Source: Thermotogaceae bacterium (GTDB lineage Bacteria; Thermotogota; Thermotogae; B21-G9; HyVt-16). From it: a stretch of DNA of 55,188 nucleotides. The stretch is from assembly GCA_029981435.1 (NCBI GenBank), contig JARRBB010000006.1, forward strand, positions 1-55,188. The letters run 5' to 3'. This document shows positions 32,119 through 43,049 of this stretch, piece after piece. The notes under the pieces were generated by a model, which saw only the letters and a list, made by a program, of their open reading frames with translations, had not been told where the DNA came from and searched no databases. A program made the position numbers and the translations under genes. The first letter of the stretch is position 1. The number at the start of each line of letters is the position of its first letter.

Positions 32119-33884
32119 TTCTCATCACCATCCCAATAATAATTAACAAGTCTATTATCATCTTTTCTCCGAGCCCTCTCCACTTTCAACTTTCTGATTT
32201 TATCTCTCACAACGACAACATCTCGAGGAGGTACAGTAATCTTCTCTTCCCTAAGACCAGTCCAAAGCTTCGCATCTTCAGGAATTTCAATCTCATATTC
32301 TTTATTTTCAAGATTTGCAACCAGAATATAGTTCCCATCAAGCAGACCTTTTACACCTATAACATACACTTTTTCATCTGTGTCCAAATTGAATACTCTC
32401 GGTTCTCCATCGCATAGTTTCAAAGACTCAACAAATGTTTGTAGGCCTTCTTCATCGACCAGTTCCATATCGTCACTTTCGATTACCATATTACTCAAAG
32501 CTGCACTCACAAATGAATAAAGCCTTCTTACATTCTCAGGTAAATTTATATCTTCTTTTCTTAACAAAAGGCAATCAGGGTCGTTGTTCCACCATCTTTT
32601 ATTCATGAAATATCTTGTTATAACATTTCGCAGTGCAACCTTCGAATTTGGAAAAGGTGCTACAATATCTTCAAACCATTCTGGTGATGTATCTGCCCCT
32701 ATTCTCATCCCATCAACTATACCGATGCTTGGTAAAAGTGGCGCACCGCATCCAAGCAAAAACGAATCGCCTATCGTATCTTTTATCGTTTTTAATCCAA
32801 CTCTGTAAGCTTCAATAGGTGTAACAATCTTCTTTCTTTTTCCGGGTATTGCACCTGCAAAGAGAAAGTCAATTTTGAAATATTCAAAGCCTTTGTTTTT
32901 CAATTCTTTAAACAAGTTTTTCAACCAGTCCAGTACTTCCTCATTTGATAAATCAAGGCCATATATGTTCTTTTCCCAGTTTCTGTAAGCTACTTTCGGT
33001 TCGCCATTCTCATCACTTATCAACCAATCTTTATGCTCTTTAAAAACAGTTGAAGTTTCAGAAACACTGAATGGGGCAAGCCAGATCCCCGGTATGAAAC
33101 CTGCATCCCTTATACTTTTCACAATTCCTTCCAATCCTTCAGGAAACTTCGAGTTTGTTTCCAGCCAGTCTCCTATATCCTTCTGATATCCGTCATCAAT
33201 CTGTACAAACTGATAAGGAATTTTCTCTTTCAAATTTTTCAGAAATTCAATGTTTTTCTTCAATTCATCATAAGTTATGTTGGTGAAGTAATGATACCAG
33301 CTGCACCAGCCAACACGAACTTTCTTATCGGCGCTAATATTATTTTTTTCTGCAACTAACGCTCCATAAGTTTCCAGAAGTTTTTCTATTTTCTTATTCT
33401 TCAGTACAACCAGTGGCTCTAAAACCAGCTTTTCTCCTGTTTCAAGCTCTTTACCAAATAAATCGACATAAGCAGAGATTGTTTTTTTGCCCTTGTCGTA
33501 TACGAAGAAGTTATGAGAAAACTCGGATTTTAAAAAGCCTATCAAAACATTTGAAAATGCTACAAAATAGTCACTCATAAGTTTGTCTTTTTCACGGAAC
33601 AACTCAGGTTCTGGTGTAAACGCCAGGACAAAATCTTTTGCGGGTGGAACCTCAAAATATTTAGAGATATCAAGACCTACAGAGAAAAAATCACAGCTTC
33701 CCCAACTCTGCCAGTTGTTTAAGAAAATCTTTTCAACATCAACCGGTAATTCAAAGAGTTTCAGTAGGTTATAAGTTTTTTTAGATGAATCGAAATTTAC
33801 AACTTCAAATTGCAGCACACAATCTTCATCAGGAAGGTTGAATTTTTCTCCCAGAACTATTCTGTATTCTTTCAAATTACTCAA
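32112..33884 (-). CDS. Alpha-galactosidase, glycoside hydrolase family 36 (GalA-like)
   Basis: 590 aa; VGWCSWYHYF, QIDDGYQ, KIDFLFAG motifs as in Thermotoga GalA. Confidence 0.88.
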   Translation of the reverse strand: MSNLKEYRIVLGEKFNLPDEDCVLQFEVVNFDSSKKTYNLLKLFELPVDVEKIFLNNWQSWGSCDFFSVGLDISKYFEVPPAKDFVLAFTPEPELFREKDKLMSDYFVAFSNVLIGFLKSEFSHNFFVYDKGKKTISAYVDLFGKELETGEKLVLEPLVVLKNKKIEKLLETYGALVAEKNNISADKKVRVGWCSWYHYFTNITYDELKKNIEFLKNLKEKIPYQFVQIDDGYQKDIGDWLETNSKFPEGLEGIVKSIRDAGFIPGIWLAPFSVSETSTVFKEHKDWLISDENGEPKVAYRNWEKNIYGLDLSNEEVLDWLKNLFKELKNKGFEYFKIDFLFAGAIPGKRKKIVTPIEAYRVGLKTIKDTIGDSFLLGCGAPLLPSIGIVDGMRIGADTSPEWFEDIVAPFPNSKVALRNVITRYFMNKRWWNNDPDCLLLRKEDINLPENVRRLYSFVSAALSNMVIESDDMELVDEEGLQTFVESLKLCDGEPRVFNLDTDEKVYVIGVKGLLDGNYILVANLENKEYEIEIPEDAKLWTGLREEKITVPPRDVVVVRDKIRKLKVERARRKDDNRLVNYYWDGDENC

Positions 33885-36256
33885 TCCTCCTTGTTGAAAA
33901 GTATATTTGAAATCAATTTTCTGGATAATTCAGTATTTTTGAGAGTGGTGATGACTTTAAATCTTCCATTTTCGTTCTTAACGTACAAAAGGCTTCCAAG
34001 TCCAAAACCCCAACCTATCAATTTGCTTATGACAGAATTTCTTGACGAAAATTTGTCTTTTGGGATAAGTATGAATTTGGATGCCAGTTTATTCAATCCC
34101 CACAATATAGCACCTATATTTATATCCCTCAAGGTGTTGAATAAAGTAAACCCACTTATCCAATCACCCTGCCAGTCAAGATTTCCAAAAATTTTTTCAT
34201 CTTCACTTATCACATAAAATTCGTTTAATTCATGATTTTCATCGTTGATCCATTTTATTTCGTAATCACAGTTTTTAGATTCCAATTTCATTATAGGATA
34301 GAAATTCCTTGATATCACTTTATCATTTTCAAATATCTCAACAAATATGTTCTGCTCATCATTTGTTTCGAACTCAAATGTTCCAAGGTTCAGCAATTCA
34401 AATGAATCGACTTTCACTTCTAATCCTTTCAAAACTCTCTTTTCTGTTCTTATAATCACTTTACCATTAATTTTTCGACTCGACATATTTGAGATAAACA
34501 AATCCATAGAATATTCCGAACTCTCAAGTAAAGAATCATGATCTTTCACAATTGCCAAAACGTCTGAATTCAAATACTTGAGATAAGAATAGAAGAATTT
34601 TGGCATTCTGTTGTAGTCGAGTAAACCGTTCGCTTCCCAGGCTATGTCTGAAAATTCGGTTATCACATATCCTACAATAGCAGGATTTAATCTTATAGTT
34701 TCAATTTGAAATTTTAATCCCATAAACTGATTTAGTTGAGTTTGCAAGATCAGGTCATCAAGATTATGAAAACCGAAAATATTTTTGATAATTTCTGCGG
34801 GTGATGAACCATCGAATTTAATCCCCATCAATGTAATTGGATAATTTGCCCAGCTGTGCTCCCATGTTTTTATATCTGGCAGTCCCCAAACTCCAAACTC
34901 AGAGAGTACCTTTGGTAATTTCTTTTCAGGCCTTTCAAAAAAAGTTCTAAATTCACCGGAAGCAAATTTCTGAACTTTTTCTTCCCAAAGTTCGTTGTGA
35001 TAAGGGAAAGAATGATAAAAATGATAATCATCTACGTCAGACACCACGTGCAAATTTCCACAGCAGGCTGAATTGTCGACAATAAGACGAGTTGGATCGA
35101 GTTTTTTTGCCTCATTGTAAAACGAAGTTATCCAGTTTTTGGTTTCTTCGTCCATGTTCTCCCATAACTTCATTCCCCAGCTTTCATTTATCAAACTCAT
35201 CATTACAAACGACGGATGATTGGCATGTCTTTGCAAAACGTTTTTTAGCAAACTCCAGAGGTATTCCTTTGATTCCTCATCAAGTTCTCGGGCATAAGGA
35301 AGATCAATCCATACGAGTATACCAAGCTCATCGGCAATCTCAAGGTAAAGGTCATCCGGAATTTTAACATGGTATCTCAGAAGATTAAGCCCTAAATCTT
35401 TCGCCTTTGTTAGTTCAGAAAGCATTTTCGTTCTACCTCTCAAAGTGTAGTGAGTATCAGGATAAAAATTCTGATCAAGGGCACCGAAAAGGTAAACTGG
35501 TTCACCGTTGAGTAAAAGTTTACCATTTTCAGCCTTTACATATCTGATTCCAAAACGTGTACTGAAGAAATCACTGTTTTTACCATCATTAAAATTGATC
35601 TGTAATGTGTAAAGTTCGGGCGTTTTAGGTGACCAAATCTTCGGATTGGGAACTTCAAACGATATCTTTCCACCGTTGAATTCTTTATTTAGAACAATCG
35701 ATCCTTGCGAATCTAATACCGTCAATTTGTATTCATGATCCAACTCATCTGAAAATTCAACAAAGCAGTTCACCGTTCTCAGATCTTCTCTTGGATACAC
35801 TCTAACCGACTTTATATGAACATCATCCACTATCCAGAGTTCGACATCCTGAATTATTCCTGCTGCATTTCCATACCAATCCTGCTTTCCGGCCACTCTC
35901 TCTGGATGTTCTGAAATATCGTAATCAGAAACCTTTACAATCAGTATATCTTCTCCATCAAATTTCAAAAAATCTGTTATTTCAACATCGAACAGATCGT
36001 ATCCGTTGGTATGTTCAAAAACTTTCATATTGTTCACAAAAATTTCCGATTGATAATCTAAACCATGAAATCTCAAAATAATCCTTTTTTTCAATGTCCC
36101 TTTAAGCTCACAAAGTTTCCGTCTGTACTCAGCGCTTAAAAAAGCAGGGTTGGGATAACTGTTAACATCAAACGGAAAATAATGAGGAATTGAAATATCT
36201 TCAATTATCTGGTCTTCATTCACAAATATCCACTTATCTTTCAATCTAATACGCAT
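33881..36256 (-). CDS. Glycoside hydrolase family 2 (beta-galactosidase-like) with C-terminal extension of unknown function
   Basis: 791 aa. GH2 sugar-binding/Ig/TIM order; acid/base region NHPSFVMMSLINESWG. 4-nt overlap (ATGA) with the GH36 gene. Confidence 0.75.
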   Translation of the reverse strand: MRIRLKDKWIFVNEDQIIEDISIPHYFPFDVNSYPNPAFLSAEYRRKLCELKGTLKKRIILRFHGLDYQSEIFVNNMKVFEHTNGYDLFDVEITDFLKFDGEDILIVKVSDYDISEHPERVAGKQDWYGNAAGIIQDVELWIVDDVHIKSVRVYPREDLRTVNCFVEFSDELDHEYKLTVLDSQGSIVLNKEFNGGKISFEVPNPKIWSPKTPELYTLQINFNDGKNSDFFSTRFGIRYVKAENGKLLLNGEPVYLFGALDQNFYPDTHYTLRGRTKMLSELTKAKDLGLNLLRYHVKIPDDLYLEIADELGILVWIDLPYARELDEESKEYLWSLLKNVLQRHANHPSFVMMSLINESWGMKLWENMDEETKNWITSFYNEAKKLDPTRLIVDNSACCGNLHVVSDVDDYHFYHSFPYHNELWEEKVQKFASGEFRTFFERPEKKLPKVLSEFGVWGLPDIKTWEHSWANYPITLMGIKFDGSSPAEIIKNIFGFHNLDDLILQTQLNQFMGLKFQIETIRLNPAIVGYVITEFSDIAWEANGLLDYNRMPKFFYSYLKYLNSDVLAIVKDHDSLLESSEYSMDLFISNMSSRKINGKVIIRTEKRVLKGLEVKVDSFELLNLGTFEFETNDEQNIFVEIFENDKVISRNFYPIMKLESKNCDYEIKWINDENHELNEFYVISEDEKIFGNLDWQGDWISGFTLFNTLRDINIGAILWGLNKLASKFILIPKDKFSSRNSVISKLIGWGFGLGSLLYVKNENGRFKVITTLKNTELSRKLISNILFNKED

Positions 36257-36343
36257 TTTTATCCCTTCCTTTCAAAAGTTTGGTTACCGTTAACGTTCAC
36301 GAAAATTATAATACCAACATTTTTTTCAGTCAAGTTTAAAGTA

Positions 36344-36384
36344 TAAAAAAACAGGGGTAATATTTTTCACTATTACCCCTGTTT
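36344..36384 (-). terminator. Intrinsic terminator (12-bp stem) downstream of the split lipoprotein gene
   Basis: ACAGGGGTAATA-tttttcac-TATTACCCCTGT; on the minus strand it is followed by UUUUUUU. Confidence 0.75.
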
Positions 36385-36457
36385 GTCCTGTTTAAAGGTC
36401 TAAAACCTTTATTCGATGTTGTTTCAAATATTAATAAGGAGGCCAAAAATCGTCCCA

Positions 36458-37027
36458 CTAGCTTACTGGTGTTGCATCTGTCCATTTTAACCTGGCGCCA
36501 TTGTAAATTACAGTGAACAAATCAGTCGCATTTTCTGTATCACTCATTTTGAGAGTAAGCCTTATGAAATTATCACTCAAGATATCACCCGTTATAACGA
36601 AAGAATTCCCAAGAGCTTCCTTTTGATCAAAAGCACTTTGAGGAGCTATATCAAGTGTGATAGTTGTAGCAGCCTGAAAAGTCGATTCGTTTATTGTCCC
36701 AACCAAAACCAATGGGAATGGACCTTCATTAATAAGCTCTATGAGTGGATTAAGAAGTTCCACAGTTATACTCGTACCAGATTGAGTTATAGTTGCACCT
36801 GAGTTGACTAATAAAATACTTCCTTCATCATAACCCACAAAATAGCTATCAAAAAGATTAAATAAAAACGTTTCACCATATAAAGACATTTTAATCACTT
36901 CTGCAGTAAGCTACCATTCCCCATTGATATCAAATGTTTGTTGTTGCTGTTGATATATAACAACACAGGATGATAACAATATAGTTGCAAGAAACACTAT
37001 TATACTGATTTTTAGTGACTTTTTCAT
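36458..37027 (-). pseudogene. Lipoprotein gene interrupted by an in-frame TAG: 39-codon signal-peptide ORF (36911-37027) + 146-aa mature-domain ORF (36458-36898) in the same frame
   Basis: MKKSLKISIIVFLATILLSSCVVIYQQQQQTFDINGEW-TAG-LTAEVIKMSLYGETF… Own extended -10 promoter (TGTATAAT) and RBS upstream; terminator downstream. Both ORFs are in frame (129 nt apart). Confidence 0.55.
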
Positions 37028-37122
37028 TTCTTCCTTATCCCCTTAATTCTTTGTTACTATTATACAATAACAATATCAGAAAAATCAAAAATCGGATTGA
37101 ATTTGATCCAAATTATTTCTTT

Positions 37123-38208
37123 TCAAAATTCAATTTCTTTTCCAAGCTCGGCAGACTTATAAGCAGACGTCAGAATTTTTATCATGGTTATACCATGGTA
37201 AGGTGTTACCTGAGGTTCTTCCTTTCCAAGTACACAATTCACAAAATGCCTTATTTGATTTTCATGGCCATTCGCCCATTTTTCTTCTTTCACTCTTGGT
37301 GTCAAATCATAAGAATGTCCATGAGATTCACCGTAAATTTTTATGAATATACCATCTGAATTCATATGATACGACAAACCAGCCTTTGTCCCGAGTAATT
37401 CAAGGAAGAAGTTTTCCTTCTCTATATTCGAAGCCCAGCTGAATTCAAATTGCAGCGACATTGAATTTTTGAATCTCATGAACCCAATCGCAAGATCTTC
37501 AACATCGAATTTTTTCTCCTTTATTGATTCGAAGTCGGTCCAACCGAAATCACTTACCTGTGAATTTTTGCCTATTTTCAAGTAAGTCGATGCACTTATA
37601 CTCTTTGGTTCTGGAAAACCCGTAACCCACATTGTCAGATCGAGTATGTGTACTCCAAGATCAATCAAAGGTCCTCCACCTGCAAGTTTTTTATCCGTGA
37701 ACCATTCTCCCCACCACGGAATACCTCTTCGCCTTATATAACCACATCTTGCAACGTAAACTTCTCCGAGTTCTCCAGAATCAACGATATCTTTCACATA
37801 TTTTGAAATTTTTCTGAATCTATTGTTTCTAATAGCCATGAGAAGTTTTTTGTTCTTTTTTGAAGCATCGTACATTTTTTGCACTTCTTCCACACTTATA
37901 GCATCAGGTTTTTCACATAGAACATTCTTACCAGCATTCAAAGCATCAACAGCAATTATTGAATGATAATAATTTGGAGTACATATATCTATTATGTCGA
38001 GTTTCTCGTTCAGCATATCTTTATAATCAGTGAAATATTTAGCTGAAAACTCTTCTGCAGCTTTTTTCGCTCTTTCTTCCTTGATATCGCAGAACGCTTT
38101 TAATTCTACTAAACCTTCCTCCTGTAATTTTTTCCATGCAGGAATGTGAGCACCATTGGCTATTCCCCCGACTCCTACAATTCCAACTTTAAGTTTCTTC
38201 CTTCTCAT
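37123..38208 (-). CDS. Gfo/Idh/MocA-family NAD(P)-dependent oxidoreductase
   Basis: 361 aa; N-terminal Rossmann GIVGVGGIANGAHIP. Confidence 0.88.
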   Translation of the reverse strand: MRRKKLKVGIVGVGGIANGAHIPAWKKLQEEGLVELKAFCDIKEERAKKAAEEFSAKYFTDYKDMLNEKLDIIDICTPNYYHSIIAVDALNAGKNVLCEKPDAISVEEVQKMYDASKKNKKLLMAIRNNRFRKISKYVKDIVDSGELGEVYVARCGYIRRRGIPWWGEWFTDKKLAGGGPLIDLGVHILDLTMWVTGFPEPKSISASTYLKIGKNSQVSDFGWTDFESIKEKKFDVEDLAIGFMRFKNSMSLQFEFSWASNIEKENFFLELLGTKAGLSYHMNSDGIFIKIYGESHGHSYDLTPRVKEEKWANGHENQIRHFVNCVLGKEEPQVTPYHGITMIKILTSAYKSAELGKEIEF

Positions 38209-38241
38209 CTAAAAACCCCTCCCAGCTTTAAATTAAAATGC

Positions 38242-39171
38242 TCAGCTTTGCTGAGCCTCCATGAATTGCGGTATCGAATCTTCAACTATTTCAATCTCTG
38301 TTTCAAGCTCTAATCCATAACTTTCAAAAACTTTTTTCTTTATAAAGTTTATAAGAAAAATAACATCTTCCGCTTTTGCGTTACCGGTATTAACAATAAA
38401 ACCGCCATGTTTATCAGAAATCATAGCATCACCGTGTTTGAGACCTTTTAATTTAAGATCTTCAACAAGCTTTCCCACATAGATATTGTTAGCAGGCCTT
38501 CTGAAAACACTCCCAGCACTTGGATAATTAAGTGGCTGTTTCTCTATACGTATTCTCATATAATTGCGCATTTTTTCCTTTATGATCTCGATCTGTGAAT
38601 GCTTCAATTTAAAATATGCCGACAGAACCAAAAGGTTTTGTTCGGCTATCAGAGATTTTCTATATCTGAAACACAACTTTTCTTTCGAGAGCCAGATCCT
38701 GTTCTCACCATCGAAAAGTTCTACTTTTTCAACCAGATCACCAATTTCCCTGCCAAAAGCTCCTGAATTCATTCTCAAAGCTCCACCGATTGTACCCGGG
38801 ATACCAAATAGTTCTTCAAATCCACTCAATGAATGTTTCAACGCTTCAACAGCAAGTTTGGTAAGTGAAACACCTGTTTCTGCAAATACCGTTTCACCAT
38901 CGAAAGAAAAATCGTTTAACTGTTCTGTTGATATAACTATACCTCTGAAACCCTGATCCGAAAACAACGTGTTTGAACCTCTTCCCAAAATGAAGAAGGG
39001 TATTTTACGCTTTTTCAGTTCTCTAACACAGAAACAGAACATCTCACGATCAAAGGGTTTTACAAAAAAGTCAGCATAACCACCTATTCTGAAGGTTGTA
39101 TGTGAACTCAAGGGTTCATTTTCAATTACTTCGCATCCAACAAGCATGAACTCTTTTATCACATCTCTCAT
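38242..39171 (-). CDS. murB: UDP-N-acetylenolpyruvoylglucosamine reductase
   Basis: 309 aa; FAD-binding PCMH domain (TTFRIGGYADFF), MurB C-terminal domain. Confidence 0.9.
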   Translation of the reverse strand: MRDVIKEFMLVGCEVIENEPLSSHTTFRIGGYADFFVKPFDREMFCFCVRELKKRKIPFFILGRGSNTLFSDQGFRGIVISTEQLNDFSFDGETVFAETGVSLTKLAVEALKHSLSGFEELFGIPGTIGGALRMNSGAFGREIGDLVEKVELFDGENRIWLSKEKLCFRYRKSLIAEQNLLVLSAYFKLKHSQIEIIKEKMRNYMRIRIEKQPLNYPSAGSVFRRPANNIYVGKLVEDLKLKGLKHGDAMISDKHGGFIVNTGNAKAEDVIFLINFIKKKVFESYGLELETEIEIVEDSIPQFMEAQQS

Positions 39172-39177
39172 GCCTAT

Positions 39178-40098
39178 TCATCTCCTAAGATAATTGTATT
39201 TTTTTCCTTGAAACGAATCTCTTTTTTCCATTTCCTCTTCTATTATTCTAACTATATCCTGTTTTTTCATACCCCAGTTTCCAAATATGGTTCCTTCTTT
39301 AGGTGGATCCGCCACTAATCTGTGGATTATAATCTCGGGACTCAGGTACTCAAGAAAAGTTATAACTCTTTCAACATATTCATGAACAGAACATATTTTC
39401 ACTTCGTTGTTCAAGAACATTTCAGCAAGTTTGGTATTTTTGACCACATATAGCGAATGAAGCTTCACACCATCTACATTCAATGCACTCAAGATTTTGG
39501 CAGTTTCAACAACGTCTTCCATGTCGTCCCAAGGTAGATTCAAGATAACGTGCGAAACAACATTAAAACTTCTTTTTTTGAGCCTCACAACAGCGTCGAT
39601 GAATTCTGAAAGTGTGTGACCTCTGTTTAGAATCTTCAAAGTCTTGTAGTTTACAGTTTGTAATCCGATTTCAACCGTCAAATCGATTTCTTTTTTCAAT
39701 TTATCAAAAACATCTATAACTTCTTCAGGAAGCAAATCTGGTCTGGTGGAGACATCCAATTCAACTATTCTTGGATCAACAAGAGCACTCTTGTATAATT
39801 TTTCAAGTTTATCCGGTGTACCATAGGTATTGGAATAAGCTTGAAAATATACAATGAACTTTTCAGCTTTGAATCTTCTCTCAGCTCTTTCAATCATACG
39901 TGATACTTGTTCTTCAATAGGAATATTAGGTCCTAAAGTCGCAAAACCGCTTCCAGAGGGATCGCAAAAAATACAACCACCTTTTGAAATCGTACCGTCT
40001 CTGTTTGGACAGGTAAAACCAGCAGACAGAGGAATTTTATGGACACGCGTACCATATTTTTCTTTTAAATACTTACTGAGTTTTCTATATCTATCCAT
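39178..40098 (-). CDS. Radical SAM protein, TIGR01212 (YhcC-like) family
   Basis: 306 aa; CPNRDGTISKGGCIFC cluster motif characteristic of TIGR01212. Confidence 0.85.
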   Translation of the reverse strand: MDRYRKLSKYLKEKYGTRVHKIPLSAGFTCPNRDGTISKGGCIFCDPSGSGFATLGPNIPIEEQVSRMIERAERRFKAEKFIVYFQAYSNTYGTPDKLEKLYKSALVDPRIVELDVSTRPDLLPEEVIDVFDKLKKEIDLTVEIGLQTVNYKTLKILNRGHTLSEFIDAVVRLKKRSFNVVSHVILNLPWDDMEDVVETAKILSALNVDGVKLHSLYVVKNTKLAEMFLNNEVKICSVHEYVERVITFLEYLSPEIIIHRLVADPPKEGTIFGNWGMKKQDIVRIIEEEMEKRDSFQGKKYNYLRR

Positions 40099-40100
40099 TT

Positions 40101-40952
40101 TTATTTTATCTGCCTTATAAACCTCCTCTTGATGCCTTCACCCAGGTAGTCAGCCAGAAATTTTTCATCTAGCTGTTTTGAGAAGTCTTCAGCGGTTTTC
40201 AAATCTGTGAATATCCCAAGAACCAGAGCGTGGAGAGTAGTGTTCTTTTGAGCAAATCTGAAAATGTAGTCGATTGCTGGATAACCTTTACCTCTAAGGT
40301 ATTTCACATATGTTTTCACTGCCTCACTACTTGGATGTGCCAATAATTGCACAGTATACCATTCATCATAATATCTAACATTCATATCCATTGGGATCCT
40401 ACCTATGGGATTTATTCCACCACGTCCTATCAGAACAAGTGAAAAATTCGTGGAATTTCTGGTTATAAAATAGGGAAGGTTGGTATCGACTATTAATCTG
40501 AAAACGGTTTCTGTCGAGTCCTTTATTACAATGAATTTTTCGCCTTCTCTCACAAAATCGGTTGATCCTTCAAAGTATTTATTAAAATCGAACTTCGCCT
40601 CTTCAACTATTTCAACACCTGTCGAAGTCGAAGCATTTAGTTTACTGTAAATCTCCGTGCTTTCTGTTGAAACTACACTCTCAACATCAGGATAAGATAT
40701 AACAGGACTCGAATAAAAAGTTACCAGAGATGCCTGAGCAGATAACTTTTCAACCCTTGTTTCAAGCTCCTGAATCAAACTCATGTATCGTTCAATTCGT
40801 GAACGAAGCATGAAAACATAACTCGCTAATCCTACACAAGCCAGGAACAACACTATTATTAAAATACCTATAAAACGTGCCTCTTTCTCAGAAAGCTCTA
40901 TCTTTCCGCGTTTTCCAGTTCTACCGGGCACATTTTTCCTCCTAATTTTCAA
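40101..40952 (-). CDS. Membrane-anchored SPOR-domain protein (septal peptidoglycan binding)
   Basis: 283 aa; N-terminal TM; C-terminal YTVQLLAHPSSEAVKTYVKYLRGKGYPA… matches the SPOR fold pattern. Confidence 0.65.
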   Translation of the reverse strand: MKIRRKNVPGRTGKRGKIELSEKEARFIGILIIVLFLACVGLASYVFMLRSRIERYMSLIQELETRVEKLSAQASLVTFYSSPVISYPDVESVVSTESTEIYSKLNASTSTGVEIVEEAKFDFNKYFEGSTDFVREGEKFIVIKDSTETVFRLIVDTNLPYFITRNSTNFSLVLIGRGGINPIGRIPMDMNVRYYDEWYTVQLLAHPSSEAVKTYVKYLRGKGYPAIDYIFRFAQKNTTLHALVLGIFTDLKTAEDFSKQLDEKFLADYLGEGIKRRFIRQIK

Positions 40953-40958
40953 TTCAAA

Positions 40959-42023
40959 TCAAGAACCTAAACCTTCAAAAAATAAGTGCTTTACTGTTTC
41001 GATTATAGAATCGATGGATATAGGTATTTCCACAATTTGTCCAGGTTTAACCAAAATAGGAATTTTAAGAGTTGAATAATTGAAAGTGCTTTCATCATAA
41101 TTCAAAACCTGGTACAGTGATTGAATATCAATGGGTAATTTGTCCAGTTTAAGGATAGAAGTAACAAAATGCTTTATTTTTCTGTATACACTTCTTTCCA
41201 GAAAACCGTAATTTGATGCTATACTTAATTCTATTATAATCCCAAGTCCAAGAGCTTTTGAGTATTTTATCATCAAGTTCGAAGCTGTTTGAATGATTTC
41301 TGCCATTTTTTCACCAACAAAAATATTTTTTCCGTAACCTATTCTAAGCCAGAGATTTTGAATCAAAAATTCTTTCAAAAGATCATCAGACCAATTTGTT
41401 ATTCCAAGTGAAATACTGTTTTCAACAAAATGGTAAAAACTGGCTTCACAAGTTAAACCAGTTGAGAGAGCAACCAAACAATCCTGGTTTAGTGAATACG
41501 CATCTTGGGTTTTGATAAAGTTTGGATCCAAAACCGTGATACTTGGAGATCCTCTGACCGATAGAAAATCTTTCTTTCTATCGAAATTTACCAGGAATTT
41601 TCCAGAAATAAAAGGCGCCAACATAGAAGAAAGAGTAGTGGGAATAAATAAAAGTGGCGTATCGCCAGAAATGGTTTTAACAGAAAAACCTACCAGATCA
41701 AGCAAAGAACCTCCCCCAACACCCACCACCGAAGCACTGGAATTAGTATTGTGGTAGAAGTACGAATATAGCTCATAGACCTTGTCGAGGGATTTAGATT
41801 TCTCATTTATATACACAGGTAAAATCGATACAGAATCATCTTTTGGTATTTTGTAAGAATGATAAAGCTTTACCTTGGAATCCAAAACAAATACAGGACT
41901 AAGACCACTCAAAAAAACCTTCGTAACTTCCATAAGGTGGTCAATTTTAAACATATGTATTTCAGTTGAAAGATCTCTACCTATGTTTACACTACCTATG
42001 TAATCATGCTGAGAGTTGTTCAT
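40959..42023 (-). CDS. Dehydroquinate-synthase-like (DHQS/Fe-ADH superfamily) protein, divergent, catalytic His motifs not evident
   Basis: 354 aa; VGVGGGSLLDLVGFSV…PLLFIPTTLSSMLAPFISGK parallels the DHQS GGG…AG…VPTTLLAQVDSSVGGK core. No HxxxH-type metal site recognised. Confidence 0.5.
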   Translation of the reverse strand: MNNSQHDYIGSVNIGRDLSTEIHMFKIDHLMEVTKVFLSGLSPVFVLDSKVKLYHSYKIPKDDSVSILPVYINEKSKSLDKVYELYSYFYHNTNSSASVVGVGGGSLLDLVGFSVKTISGDTPLLFIPTTLSSMLAPFISGKFLVNFDRKKDFLSVRGSPSITVLDPNFIKTQDAYSLNQDCLVALSTGLTCEASFYHFVENSISLGITNWSDDLLKEFLIQNLWLRIGYGKNIFVGEKMAEIIQTASNLMIKYSKALGLGIIIELSIASNYGFLERSVYRKIKHFVTSILKLDKLPIDIQSLYQVLNYDESTFNYSTLKIPILVKPGQIVEIPISIDSIIETVKHLFFEGLGS

Positions 42024-42035
42024 ATTCAGTCCTCT

Positions 42036-43049
42036 TTAAAACAAAAATTCAGAGTTCACAAACGATTTCAGAAGTTTAACAGTATTCAGGACATCGTTGT
42101 AATCTACCATTTCACTTGGGGTATGGACATATCGGGTGACTATAGAAACTGTTGCAGAAGGAACCCCTGCCTTCAATCTCTGGTAAGCTGCTGCGTCTGT
42201 TCCACCAAAAGGTAAAATTTCAATTTGATAAGGGATGTTCTCCTTTTTGGCTAATTCCTCAAGAAATTCCAGCACTTTTCTATCACTTATTGAATAGGCA
42301 TCCATAACCTTCAATGCAGGACCATCACCGAGCTTCATAGGAATCCTTTTTAAAGCTTTGGGAGTGTCACCATGTGCTGTCACATCTATAGCTATAACAA
42401 CATCCGGTTCTATATCGTAACCTGCTACCGTAGCACCTACAAGGCCTATTTCCTCCTGGACCGCAAAAACACAATAGACATCGTTCAGAGGTTCCTCCAG
42501 TTCTTTCAAGAGCTGAACCATCACCGCACAACCTATTCTATCATCCATAGCTTTTGAAACCAGCTTATCTCCTAAATCATGAAAACTGGCATCGTAAGTA
42601 CCAAAAGAACCTATTTTGACTTTCTTGAGAGCGTCTTCCTTGTTCTTAGCACCTATATCCACAAACAGAACGTCAAAGCTGAGATTTTTCATGTTTTCTC
42701 TCGAACTTCTGAAGCTCTCGCCCTCTATTCCAATGACACCCACCACATTATTCTGGAATCTCACTCTTGAGCCAACCAAAGTGTAAGGATTAACGCCACC
42801 AACAGCTTCTATCCTCAAAAAACCATTTTCATCTATGTTGGTAACAACGACACCAATCTCATCCATATGCGCATCAAGCAGGACTTTTTTACCAGTTTTT
42901 CCTTTCTTCAAAACTATCAGATTCCCAAGTTTATCTCTCCAGTATTCATCGAAATTACCATCCAGAATCTCAACGATTTTTTCGGCTATTGTGTCTTCTC
43001 TACCGCTTGGTGATGAAATTTCAGTAAGGGTTTTTATAATATCTTTCAT
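42036..43049 (-). CDS. M42-family (FrvX/CelM-like) aminopeptidase, paralog 1
   Basis: 337 aa; M42 fold motifs (HMDEIG, QEEIGLVGA). Confidence 0.88.
   Translation of the reverse strand: MKDIIKTLTEISSPSGREDTIAEKIVEILDGNFDEYWRDKLGNLIVLKKGKTGKKVLLDAHMDEIGVVVTNIDENGFLRIEAVGGVNPYTLVGSRVRFQNNVVGVIGIEGESFRSSRENMKNLSFDVLFVDIGAKNKEDALKKVKIGSFGTYDASFHDLGDKLVSKAMDDRIGCAVMVQLLKELEEPLNDVYCVFAVQEEIGLVGATVAGYDIEPDVVIAIDVTAHGDTPKALKRIPMKLGDGPALKVMDAYSISDRKVLEFLEELAKKENIPYQIEILPFGGTDAAAYQRLKAGVPSATVSIVTRYVHTPSEMVDYNDVLNTVKLLKSFVNSEFLF

What the first reader, a model, noticed from the sequence alone, without database searches (positions are those of the whole stretch)
36458..37122. Lipoprotein gene split by an in-frame TAG between the signal peptide and the mature domain
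A 39-codon ORF (36911-37027, minus strand) encodes a perfect lipoprotein signal peptide (MKKSLKISIIVFLATILLSSC) plus 17 residues including a QQQQQ run. It ends at a TAG.

The 146-aa ORF 36458-36898 follows in exactly the same frame, with only 4 codons in between, and has no signal peptide of its own.

The unit carries its own extended -10 promoter (TGTATAAT), an RBS and a strong downstream terminator, so it looks like a real transcription unit. It could be any of:
- a recent nonsense mutation (pseudogene)
- a sequencing error
- stop-codon read-through or recoding
- an intentionally separate tiny lipopeptide plus a cytosolic partner
Basis: seen in the sequence. Interest (0 to 1): 0.5.

Follow-up and report, generated by a model that had tools for sequence, protein, structure and literature searches.

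The report
Orphan lipoprotein gene broken by nonsense mutation
A small lipoprotein gene found only in one uncultured Thermotogaceae species is cut by a real TGG-to-TAG nonsense mutation; a second allele keeps TGG but has its own premature TAA nine codons upstream, so this is an ordinary decaying gene, not recoding.

Summary
On the minus strand, ATG 37027 opens a canonical lipoprotein signal peptide (lipobox LSSC). Seventeen more residues follow, then TAG (36911-36913). The same frame then stays open for 150 codons to a second TAG (36458-36460).

The TAG is not a sequencing error. Six independent metagenome assemblies carry it, one from a strain 0.33% diverged.

A variant allele (JGI 3300034520) has TGG (Trp) at this site, but also CAA>TAA nine codons upstream. 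No intact copy exists in any database searched.

Both stops are G:C>A:T transitions. They fall in the Gln5/Trp2 stretch that holds 9 of the gene's 15 such routes to a stop.

The downstream ORF has no real ribosome-binding site, and its ATG is ACG in the other allele. No RNA structure follows the TAG, and TAG ends other genes here.

The protein has no detectable family. The whole ~770-nt unit is absent from the sister species.

Between the two alleles, differences cluster in 288 nt at the 5' end. All ten coding substitutions are nonsynonymous and both indels are in frame.

Best reading: a lineage-specific, dispensable lipoprotein gene segregating as independent null alleles. Interest is low to moderate.

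The parts
37059..37088 (-). Promoter-like site TTGATT-18 nt-TATAAT upstream of the lipoprotein gene
   Evidence: One search gives 10 of 12 matches. The site is identical in all alleles. It is a consensus match only, and such sites are not enriched over shuffles.
37030..37044 (-). Shine-Dalgarno-like AAGGGGATAAGGAAG before ATG 37027
   Evidence: -7.3 kcal/mol to the 16S tail (anti-SD sequence assumed from Thermotoga). Two A>G differences in the L017/L018 allele (37038, 37032) lie here.
36965..37027 (-). Lipoprotein signal peptide, codons 1-21 (MKKSLKISIIVFLATILLSSC); lipobox LSSC with Cys21 at 36965-36967
   Evidence: It is 100% conserved in all alleles.
36914..36964 (-). Codons 22-38, VVIYQQQQQTFDINGEW: Gln-rich tether and start of the mature part. 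Codon 30 (CAA, 36938-36940) is TAA in allele L017.
36911..36913 (-). In-frame TAG (codon 39). It is TGG (Trp) in allele L017, so the inferred change is TGG>TAG, a G>A transition at window 36912.
36461..36910 (-). Remaining 150 codons of the interrupted reading frame (LTAEVIKMSLYGETF...TDATPVS). Databases annotate its last 143 codons as a hypothetical protein (MDI3472170.1, MDN5337278.1).
   Evidence: (codon usage). No family was found.
36458..36460 (-). Terminal stop of the gene, also TAG
   Evidence: It is conserved in all alleles.
36828..37115 (-). Mosaic, hypervariable tract between the window allele and allele L017. It holds 14 substitutions, a 3-nt insertion and a 12-nt deletion. The other 610 nt of the unit have no differences, and the background is 0.4%.
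36349..36384 (-). Intrinsic terminator: 14-bp stem, 8-nt loop, T-run

Best explanation
This is one gene, not two. It encodes a 189-codon lipoprotein precursor made of a signal peptide with lipobox Cys21, a Gln-rich tether and a mature part of about 150 residues that is probably beta-rich.

The gene is specific to one uncultured Thermotogaceae species. In the window's allele, codon 39 has mutated from TGG (Trp) to TAG.

Translation therefore ends after 38 codons. The product is at most a prolipoprotein that would be processed to an 18-residue lipopeptide. The 150-codon remainder is not translated, apart from background read-through or inefficient re-initiation.

The gene is dispensable and segregates as null alleles. 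A second allele retains TGG but carries an independent CAA>TAA at codon 30.

- **Shown:** the stop; its presence in many assemblies; the sense codon in the other allele; the second stop; the lack of translation signals for the downstream ORF; the absence of the unit from the sister species.
- **Inferred:** the direction of the mutations; the loss of function; the lipoprotein nature of the ancestral product.
For: - **One continuous frame.** The post-stop part has gene-like codon usage.
- **The TAG is real.** It is present in L001 and L005-L009. The exact 143-aa ORF sits on 35 contigs across 48 collection blocks.
- **A sense codon exists at the site.** Allele L017 has TGG here and TAA at codon 30. 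Its 5' part recurs in a second sample, L018.
- **Mutational target explains the positions.** Both stops are G:C>A:T transitions. Nine of the 15 such routes to a stop lie in codons 22-39, so co-location has P of about 0.36.
- **No independent start for the downstream ORF.** SD energy is -2.9 kcal/mol for GTG 36898 and -5.5 for ATG 36889. The gene-start median is -10.9 and the mean for internal codons is -3.3. The ATG is ACG in L017.
- **No purifying selection on the protein.** The ORF shows 0 synonymous to 10 nonsynonymous differences between alleles, plus 1 nonsynonymous (V>D) in L001. Flanking genes show 36 to 17. Fisher p = 6.6e-5.
- **The unit is dispensable.** It is absent from 7 sister-species contigs. 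There the oxidoreductase stop is followed 135 nt later by the conserved GH2 promoter/operator piece.
- **TAG is an ordinary stop here**. No RNA structure or Rfam family lies at the site.
Against: - No intact copy or orthologue exists anywhere. There is no outgroup to polarise TGG>TAG and no proof that the protein was ever functional.
- The differences between alleles are not spread evenly, as simple neutral decay would predict. They cluster in 288 nt, all coding changes are nonsynonymous and both indels are in frame. This fits a recombined divergent tract or past diversifying selection better than plain decay.
- The null TAG allele is the common one, on at least 36 contigs. This could also mean that it is tolerated because some product is still made.
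- Expression was not tested.
Confidence: 0.75

Rival explanations
1. Adaptive loss or on/off polymorphism. The protein is a hypervariable surface lipoprotein, for example a phage or predator target. Null alleles are repeatedly selected, and intact and null haplotypes coexist in populations and are reshuffled by recombination.
For: - There are two independent nonsense alleles.
- The 5' mature region is a divergence hot spot: 14 substitutions plus 2 in-frame indels in 288 nt, against a 0.4% background.
- Coding differences run 0 synonymous to 10-11 nonsynonymous.
- Contigs from three samples end exactly one base before polymorphic sites (L010 at 36913, L018 at 36941, L019 at 37116), so alleles coexist within samples.
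- L010 runs through CAA at 36940 and breaks at 36912. This hints at a CAA + non-TAG haplotype.
Against: - No intact allele has been seen.
- Co-location of the two stops is explained by mutational target alone.
- A result of 0 synonymous in 10-11 is only marginally different from neutrality (about 0.04-0.06, assuming 25% synonymous).
- Adjacent double substitutions suggest a few complex events or one imported tract.
- Surface exposure and any phage link are untested.
Confidence: 0.15
2. Functional low-level read-through or re-initiation. The stop throttles expression, and a small amount of full-length lipoprotein (read-through) or of a signal-less 143-146-aa cytoplasmic protein (restart) is the functional product.
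For: - The 150-codon frame is still fully open, and both alleles keep it in frame.
- TAG is followed by C, which from my own knowledge of E. coli is a comparatively weak termination context.
- A weak SD-like GAAGTG lies 5 nt before ATG 36889 (-5.5 kcal/mol).
Against: - Stop identity and position differ between alleles (TAG at codon 39, TAA at codon 30).
- There is no stimulatory structure (z = -0.01).
- ATG 36889 is not conserved (ACG in L017).
- The SD of GTG 36898 is no better than random internal codons.
- There is no purifying selection on the sequence.
- An open frame is expected anyway at 0.3-0.4% strain divergence.
Confidence: 0.07
3. Two intentionally separate genes: a tiny lipopeptide and a cytosolic partner.
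For: Gene callers and NCBI annotate the 143-aa ORF as a protein. The upstream ORF alone has a complete signal peptide.
Against: - TGG fuses the ORFs at this site in L017.
- The short ORF is 38 codons in one allele and 29 in the other.
- The second ORF has no RBS.
- Neither part has a homologue elsewhere.
Confidence: 0.02
4. Sequencing or assembly error at 36912.
For: None.
Against: Six independent assemblies from Logan and JGI samples carry an identical TAG. One of them, L001, comes from a strain that differs at 27 positions.
Confidence: 0.01

Closest known systems
Bacterial lipoproteins of the Lgt/LspA pathway (class II signal peptide with lipobox)
   Same: The N-terminus has a positively charged n-region (MKKSLK), a 12-residue hydrophobic core and the lipobox L-S-S-C, followed by a Gln-rich tether. 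This is the textbook precursor architecture.
   Different: The cargo domain is cut off by a stop 17 residues after the lipidated Cys. The mature part belongs to no known family in Pfam, NCBIfam, the PDB or 5.8 billion proteins.
Nonsense-mutation pseudogenes, including genes hit repeatedly by independent stops (for example Yersinia pestis YPO0623, PMC10713766, abstract only)
   Same: A single-base change creates an in-frame stop in an otherwise open frame. A second, independent stop exists in another allele.
   Different: No intact reference copy is known, so databases annotate the remnant as a normal hypothetical protein. Only two alleles are known, and their stops lie in a mutational hot target, the Gln5/Trp2 stretch.
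Programmed stop-codon read-through or recoding (pyrrolysine at UAG, selenocysteine at UGA, leaky stops)
   Same: An in-frame UAG separates two parts of one reading frame.
   Different: The stop is not conserved, there is no downstream RNA element, and TAG terminates other genes in the window. No Pyl machinery was seen, although only 55 kb is available.
Variable surface lipoproteins with on/off switching (Mycoplasma Vlp/Vsa and Neisseria phase-variable genes; from my own knowledge)
   Same: It is a lipoprotein with a strain-variable N-terminal mature region and alleles that are 'off'.
   Different: There is no simple-sequence repeat or invertible promoter that would give reversible switching. 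The off states are point nonsense mutations.

Membership tests
Bacterial lipoprotein precursor (class II signal peptide) | N-terminal positive n-region plus a hydrophobic h-region of 7-22 residues | tested here: met
   MKKSLK followed by ISIIVFLATILL.
Bacterial lipoprotein precursor (class II signal peptide) | Lipobox [LVI][ASTVI][GAS]C within the first ~35 residues | tested here: met
   L18-S19-S20-C21. It is conserved in all alleles.
Bacterial lipoprotein precursor (class II signal peptide) | Actual lipidation and cleavage by Lgt/LspA in this organism | not testable with these tools
   This needs biochemistry. The lgt and lspA genes were not looked for, as only a 55-kb window is available.
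Pseudogene by nonsense mutation | An in-frame stop interrupts an otherwise continuous, gene-like reading frame | tested here: met
Pseudogene by nonsense mutation | A homologue or allele carries a sense codon one mutational step away at that site | tested here: met
   TGG in L017.
Pseudogene by nonsense mutation | An intact functional counterpart exists | tested here: not met
   No intact allele or orthologue was found in 5.8 billion clusters, 1.84 billion representatives, JGI contigs or exact look-ups. The only other allele has its own stop.
Pseudogene by nonsense mutation | Relaxed constraint on the sequence | tested here: met
   0 synonymous to 10-11 nonsynonymous differences, against 36 to 17 in flanking genes; p = 6.6e-5.
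Programmed read-through / recoding site | The stop codon is conserved at the same position among homologues | tested here: not met
   L017 has TGG here and TAA nine codons upstream.
Programmed read-through / recoding site | A stimulatory RNA element lies downstream of the stop | tested here: not met
   MFE is -23.4 kcal/mol against a shuffle mean of -23.4, giving z = -0.01. There is no Rfam match.
Programmed read-through / recoding site | Protein product spanning the stop | not testable with these tools
   This needs proteomics or reporter assays.
Two independent genes (operon of small ORF plus 146-aa ORF) | The downstream ORF has its own conserved start codon and RBS | tested here: not met
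   SD energy is -2.9 and -5.5 kcal/mol against a gene median of -10.9. ATG 36889 is ACG in L017.

The most novel reading that the evidence does not exclude
The gene may not be dead. It may be a fast-evolving orphan surface lipoprotein kept polymorphic for on and off alleles by selection such as phage or predator pressure.

In this reading, independent nonsense alleles (TAG at codon 39, TAA at codon 30) and a still unsampled intact CAA+TGG haplotype coexist within samples and are exchanged by recombination. The contig break at 36913 in SRR25293831 hints at such a haplotype. The N-terminal 35 residues of the mature protein would be under diversifying selection.
Probability: 0.12. Interest if true: 0.5.

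Novelty: new member of a known kind. Interest (0 to 1): 0.22.

Why it matters
The main value is annotation hygiene. Two NCBI MAG records and many metagenome gene calls list the 143-aa remnant as a normal hypothetical protein. It is in fact the tail of a nonsense-disrupted lipoprotein gene, and because the family is an orphan no pipeline can flag it.

It is also a clean small example of three things in an uncultured thermophile:
- Independent G:C>A:T nonsense mutations hitting a Gln/Trp-rich stretch.
- A strain-variable, species-specific gene sitting between conserved genes.
- Assembly breaks that mark coexisting alleles.

It does not indicate any new genetic-code or recoding phenomenon.

Tried and rejected
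- **Homologue searches.**
  - The word-indexed search of 5.8 billion proteins found only the same gene at 99% identity.
  - Full phmmer against 1.84 billion representatives added only two spurious hits to repetitive Ig-like and DUF7507 proteins. Their scores are summed over 6-7 repeats; one is a vertebrate-type Ig protein.
  - The JGI metagenome-contig scan found nothing.
- **Family and structure searches.** Pfam, NCBIfam and PDB sequence searches gave nothing, even at E = 10.
- **Structure prediction.**
  - The 150-aa post-stop part, folded alone, gave pLDDT 39.6, which is unusable, so no fold search was run.
  - My idea that GEW-x-L is a lipocalin-like GxW first strand stays an untested recollection.
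- **Code reassignment or suppressor tRNA.** TAG ends 3 of 46 long ORFs plus this gene, and the window contains no tRNA.
- **DGR-type diversification of the variable tract.** Rejected, because the differences are not adenine-specific.
- **Intermediate lineage L020 (86% nt identity).** Its contig ends 86 nt after the oxidoreductase, and that stretch aligns no better than shuffles to either version. Presence of the unit there is unknown.
- **Exact look-ups.** Ten reconstructed intact or partial proteins were looked up and none is in the collection.
- **GH2 protein search.** I ran no further search on the GH2 neighbour. One search already shows no homologue of the lipoprotein in that collection.

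Full report
**1. The observation**

ATG 37027 opens MKKSLKISIIVFLATILLSSC. This has a positive n-region, a 12-residue hydrophobic core and L-S-S-C, which fits the lipobox [LVI][ASTVI][GAS]C. Then comes VVIYQQQQQTFDINGEW, followed by TAG at 36911-36913.

The same frame continues LTAEVIKMSLYGETF...TDATPVS for 150 codons to a second TAG at 36458-36460.

- **Terminator.** A 14-bp-stem terminator with a T-run follows at 36384-36349. The scan found 2 such sites in the region against 0.3 expected.
- **Promoter.** TTGATT-18-TATAAT sits at 37088-37059 (10 of 12 matches). Such matches are not enriched over shuffles in this AT-rich DNA. The TG abuts TATAAT, so it is not the canonical TGnTATAAT extended -10.
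- **Coding potential.** The post-stop frame scores 0.286 on a codon-usage log-odds trained on 46 long ORFs of the window. Genes score 0.326 ± 0.066. The other five frames score lower, four of them negative. The post-stop frame therefore is, or recently was, coding.

**2. Not an error, and the organism**

The exact 143-aa ORF (MSLYG...) is in NCBI as a hypothetical protein of uncultured Thermotogaceae MAGs (MDI3472170.1, MDN5337278.1). It occurs on 35 contigs in 48 collection blocks.

Five fetched loci from different Logan and JGI samples (L005-L009) are 100% identical over the unit, including the TAG. L001 (SRR23823832) comes from a strain with 27 SNPs over 8,270 nt (99.67% identity). It also has the TAG, plus one V>D change in the ORF. 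A sequencing error is excluded.

**3. The decisive comparison**

The 90% cluster holds a third member, P0005. Its contig is L017 (JGI 3300034520). L017 carries TGG (Trp) where the window has TAG. The only difference in that codon is A/G at window 36912.

L017 also has CAA>TAA at the fifth Gln codon (window 36940), nine codons upstream. Its product reads MKKSL...CVVIYQQQQ*TFDINGEWWLTAEVIKTSLEEDETF.... The two alleles are therefore each interrupted by a different premature stop.

The 5' part of the L017-type allele recurs in an independent sample (L018, SRR11566351).

No intact version exists in any of the following:
- 5.8 billion protein clusters.
- 1.84 billion representatives.
- JGI contigs.
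- Exact look-ups of ten reconstructed intact or partial proteins.

Both stops are G:C>A:T transitions. In the reconstructed ORF, 9 of the 15 such single-step routes to a stop lie in codons 22-39, the five Gln codons and two Trp codons. That both stops fall there has P of about 0.36 under that mutation spectrum, and P of about 0.03 if all substitution types are equally likely. The position 'between signal peptide and mature domain' therefore needs no functional explanation.

**4. Tests of the alternatives**

*Separate downstream gene.*
- Gene starts in this window have strong Shine-Dalgarno pairing (median -10.9 kcal/mol). I used the Thermotoga-type 16S tail from my own knowledge.
- GTG 36898 scores -2.9, like random internal ATG/GTG codons (mean -3.3).
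- ATG 36889 scores -5.5, weaker than 72% of gene starts. It is ACG in L017.

*Recoding.*
- The RNA after the stop folds no better than shuffles (z = -0.01).
- There is no Rfam match and no tRNA in the window.
- TAG ends 3 of 46 long ORFs and this gene itself.
- The stop is not conserved between alleles.

**5. Selection and mosaic structure**

Among strains, the flanking genes show 36 synonymous to 17 nonsynonymous SNPs. The lipoprotein ORF shows 0 to 10 between the window and L017, plus 1 nonsynonymous in L001. Fisher p = 6.6e-5. The protein is not under purifying selection.

The divergence is not uniform, however. L017 differs from the window by 14 substitutions, a 3-nt insertion and a 12-nt deletion within 36828-37115 (288 nt). 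It has no differences in the other 610 nt of the unit and 0.4% divergence elsewhere. Both indels are in frame.

This pattern fits a recombined tract from a more divergent allele. SNPs in the flanking genes are also clustered in tracts. Past diversifying selection on the N-terminal mature region may also contribute. Plain neutral decay alone does not explain it.

**6. Context**

The protein has no family:
- There are no Pfam, NCBIfam or PDB sequence hits, even at E = 10.
- The only distant phmmer hits are repeat-summed artefacts.
- AlphaFold on the post-stop part alone was unusable (pLDDT 39.6).

In the sister species (HyVt-16 and six other contigs) the neighbouring oxidoreductase is 91% identical at the protein level and the DNA about 76% identical. 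There the whole ~770-nt unit is missing. The oxidoreductase stop is followed by a terminator and, 135 nt on, by the conserved piece TTGGTATTATAATTTT(TT)CGTRAACGTTAACGGTA. In the window that piece lies just downstream of the lipoprotein terminator, in front of the GH2 gene.

A third lineage (L020, 86% nt identity) could not be resolved, because its contig ends 86 nt after the oxidoreductase.

**7. Mechanism, as far as supported**

The ancestral product was most likely a small membrane-anchored lipoprotein (inferred from the signal peptide). In the window allele, translation stops at codon 39. At most this leaves an 18-residue lipopeptide after processing. The rest is untranslated except for background read-through or weak re-initiation.

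The gene is dispensable: it is absent from the sister species and unconstrained. It circulates as null alleles. I put this reading at about 0.75.

The main rival is the same facts read as selected loss or on/off polymorphism of a variable surface lipoprotein (about 0.15). Three contigs end exactly one base before polymorphic sites: L010 at 36913, L018 at 36941, and L019 at 37116 with a 127-nt overlap to L017. So alleles coexist within samples.

L010 runs through CAA at 36940 and breaks at 36912. In a k=31 graph (my own knowledge of Logan assemblies) this suggests a CAA + non-TAG haplotype, possibly intact. That is a hint, not a result.

**8. Verdict**

The finding is real. It is explained by a known mechanism, a nonsense mutation in a strain-variable orphan gene, with the modest twist of a second, independent null allele.

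- Novelty: new member of a known kind.
- Interest: about 0.2.

Noticed in passing
window 36913, 36941, 37116 (ends of L010, L018, L019): Three metagenome contigs from different samples end exactly one base before polymorphic sites of the lipoprotein unit, and L019 overlaps L017 by 127 nt. This indicates coexisting alleles within samples. L010 (SRR25293831) passes CAA at 36940 and breaks at 36912, hinting at a CAA + non-TAG, possibly intact, haplotype.
   Followed up: partly
window 36285-36317 (-), with promoter-like TTGACT-17-TATAAT at 36333-36305: The piece TTGGTATTATAATTTTCGTGAACGTTAACGGTA in front of the GH2 gene overlaps the promoter's -10 element and carries a near-palindromic, operator-like CGTTAACG core. 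It is conserved in the sister species (91% over 35 nt), where it is followed by an unrelated 74-aa ORF instead of GH2.
   Followed up: partly
L002, L011-L016 (sister species), 430-660 nt downstream of the oxidoreductase: All seven sister-species contigs, from different samples and assemblers, stop within ~230 nt of each other just past the oxidoreductase. This suggests a repeat, mobile element or strain-variable junction at the place where the window carries the lipoprotein unit and the GH2/melibiase genes.
   Followed up: no
window 33078-42208 (strain comparisons L001, L017, L018): SNPs between strains come in tight clusters, for example 36149/36152/36155, 40500-40926, 41535-41829 and 33108-33780. 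They are mostly synonymous. This is the pattern expected from frequent homologous recombination tracts in this population.
   Followed up: partly
window 37087-37111 (-): The oxidoreductase gene is followed only by a weak hairpin (TTGGAT...ATCCGA plus T-run) that overlaps the lipoprotein promoter's -35. The 86%-identity lineage (L020) and the sister species both have a stronger terminator at the equivalent place.
   Followed up: no
L020 (Logan SRR13298159): This is a third related lineage, 86% nucleotide identity to the window across the DHQ synthase-MurB-oxidoreductase genes. It sits between the window species and the HyVt-16 species. Its downstream region is unassembled.
   Followed up: partly
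window 36458-36889 (-); NCBI MDI3472170.1, MDN5337278.1: Public MAG annotations list the 143-aa remnant ORF as an ordinary hypothetical protein. Neither the upstream signal-peptide ORF nor the pseudogene status is annotated.
   Followed up: yes
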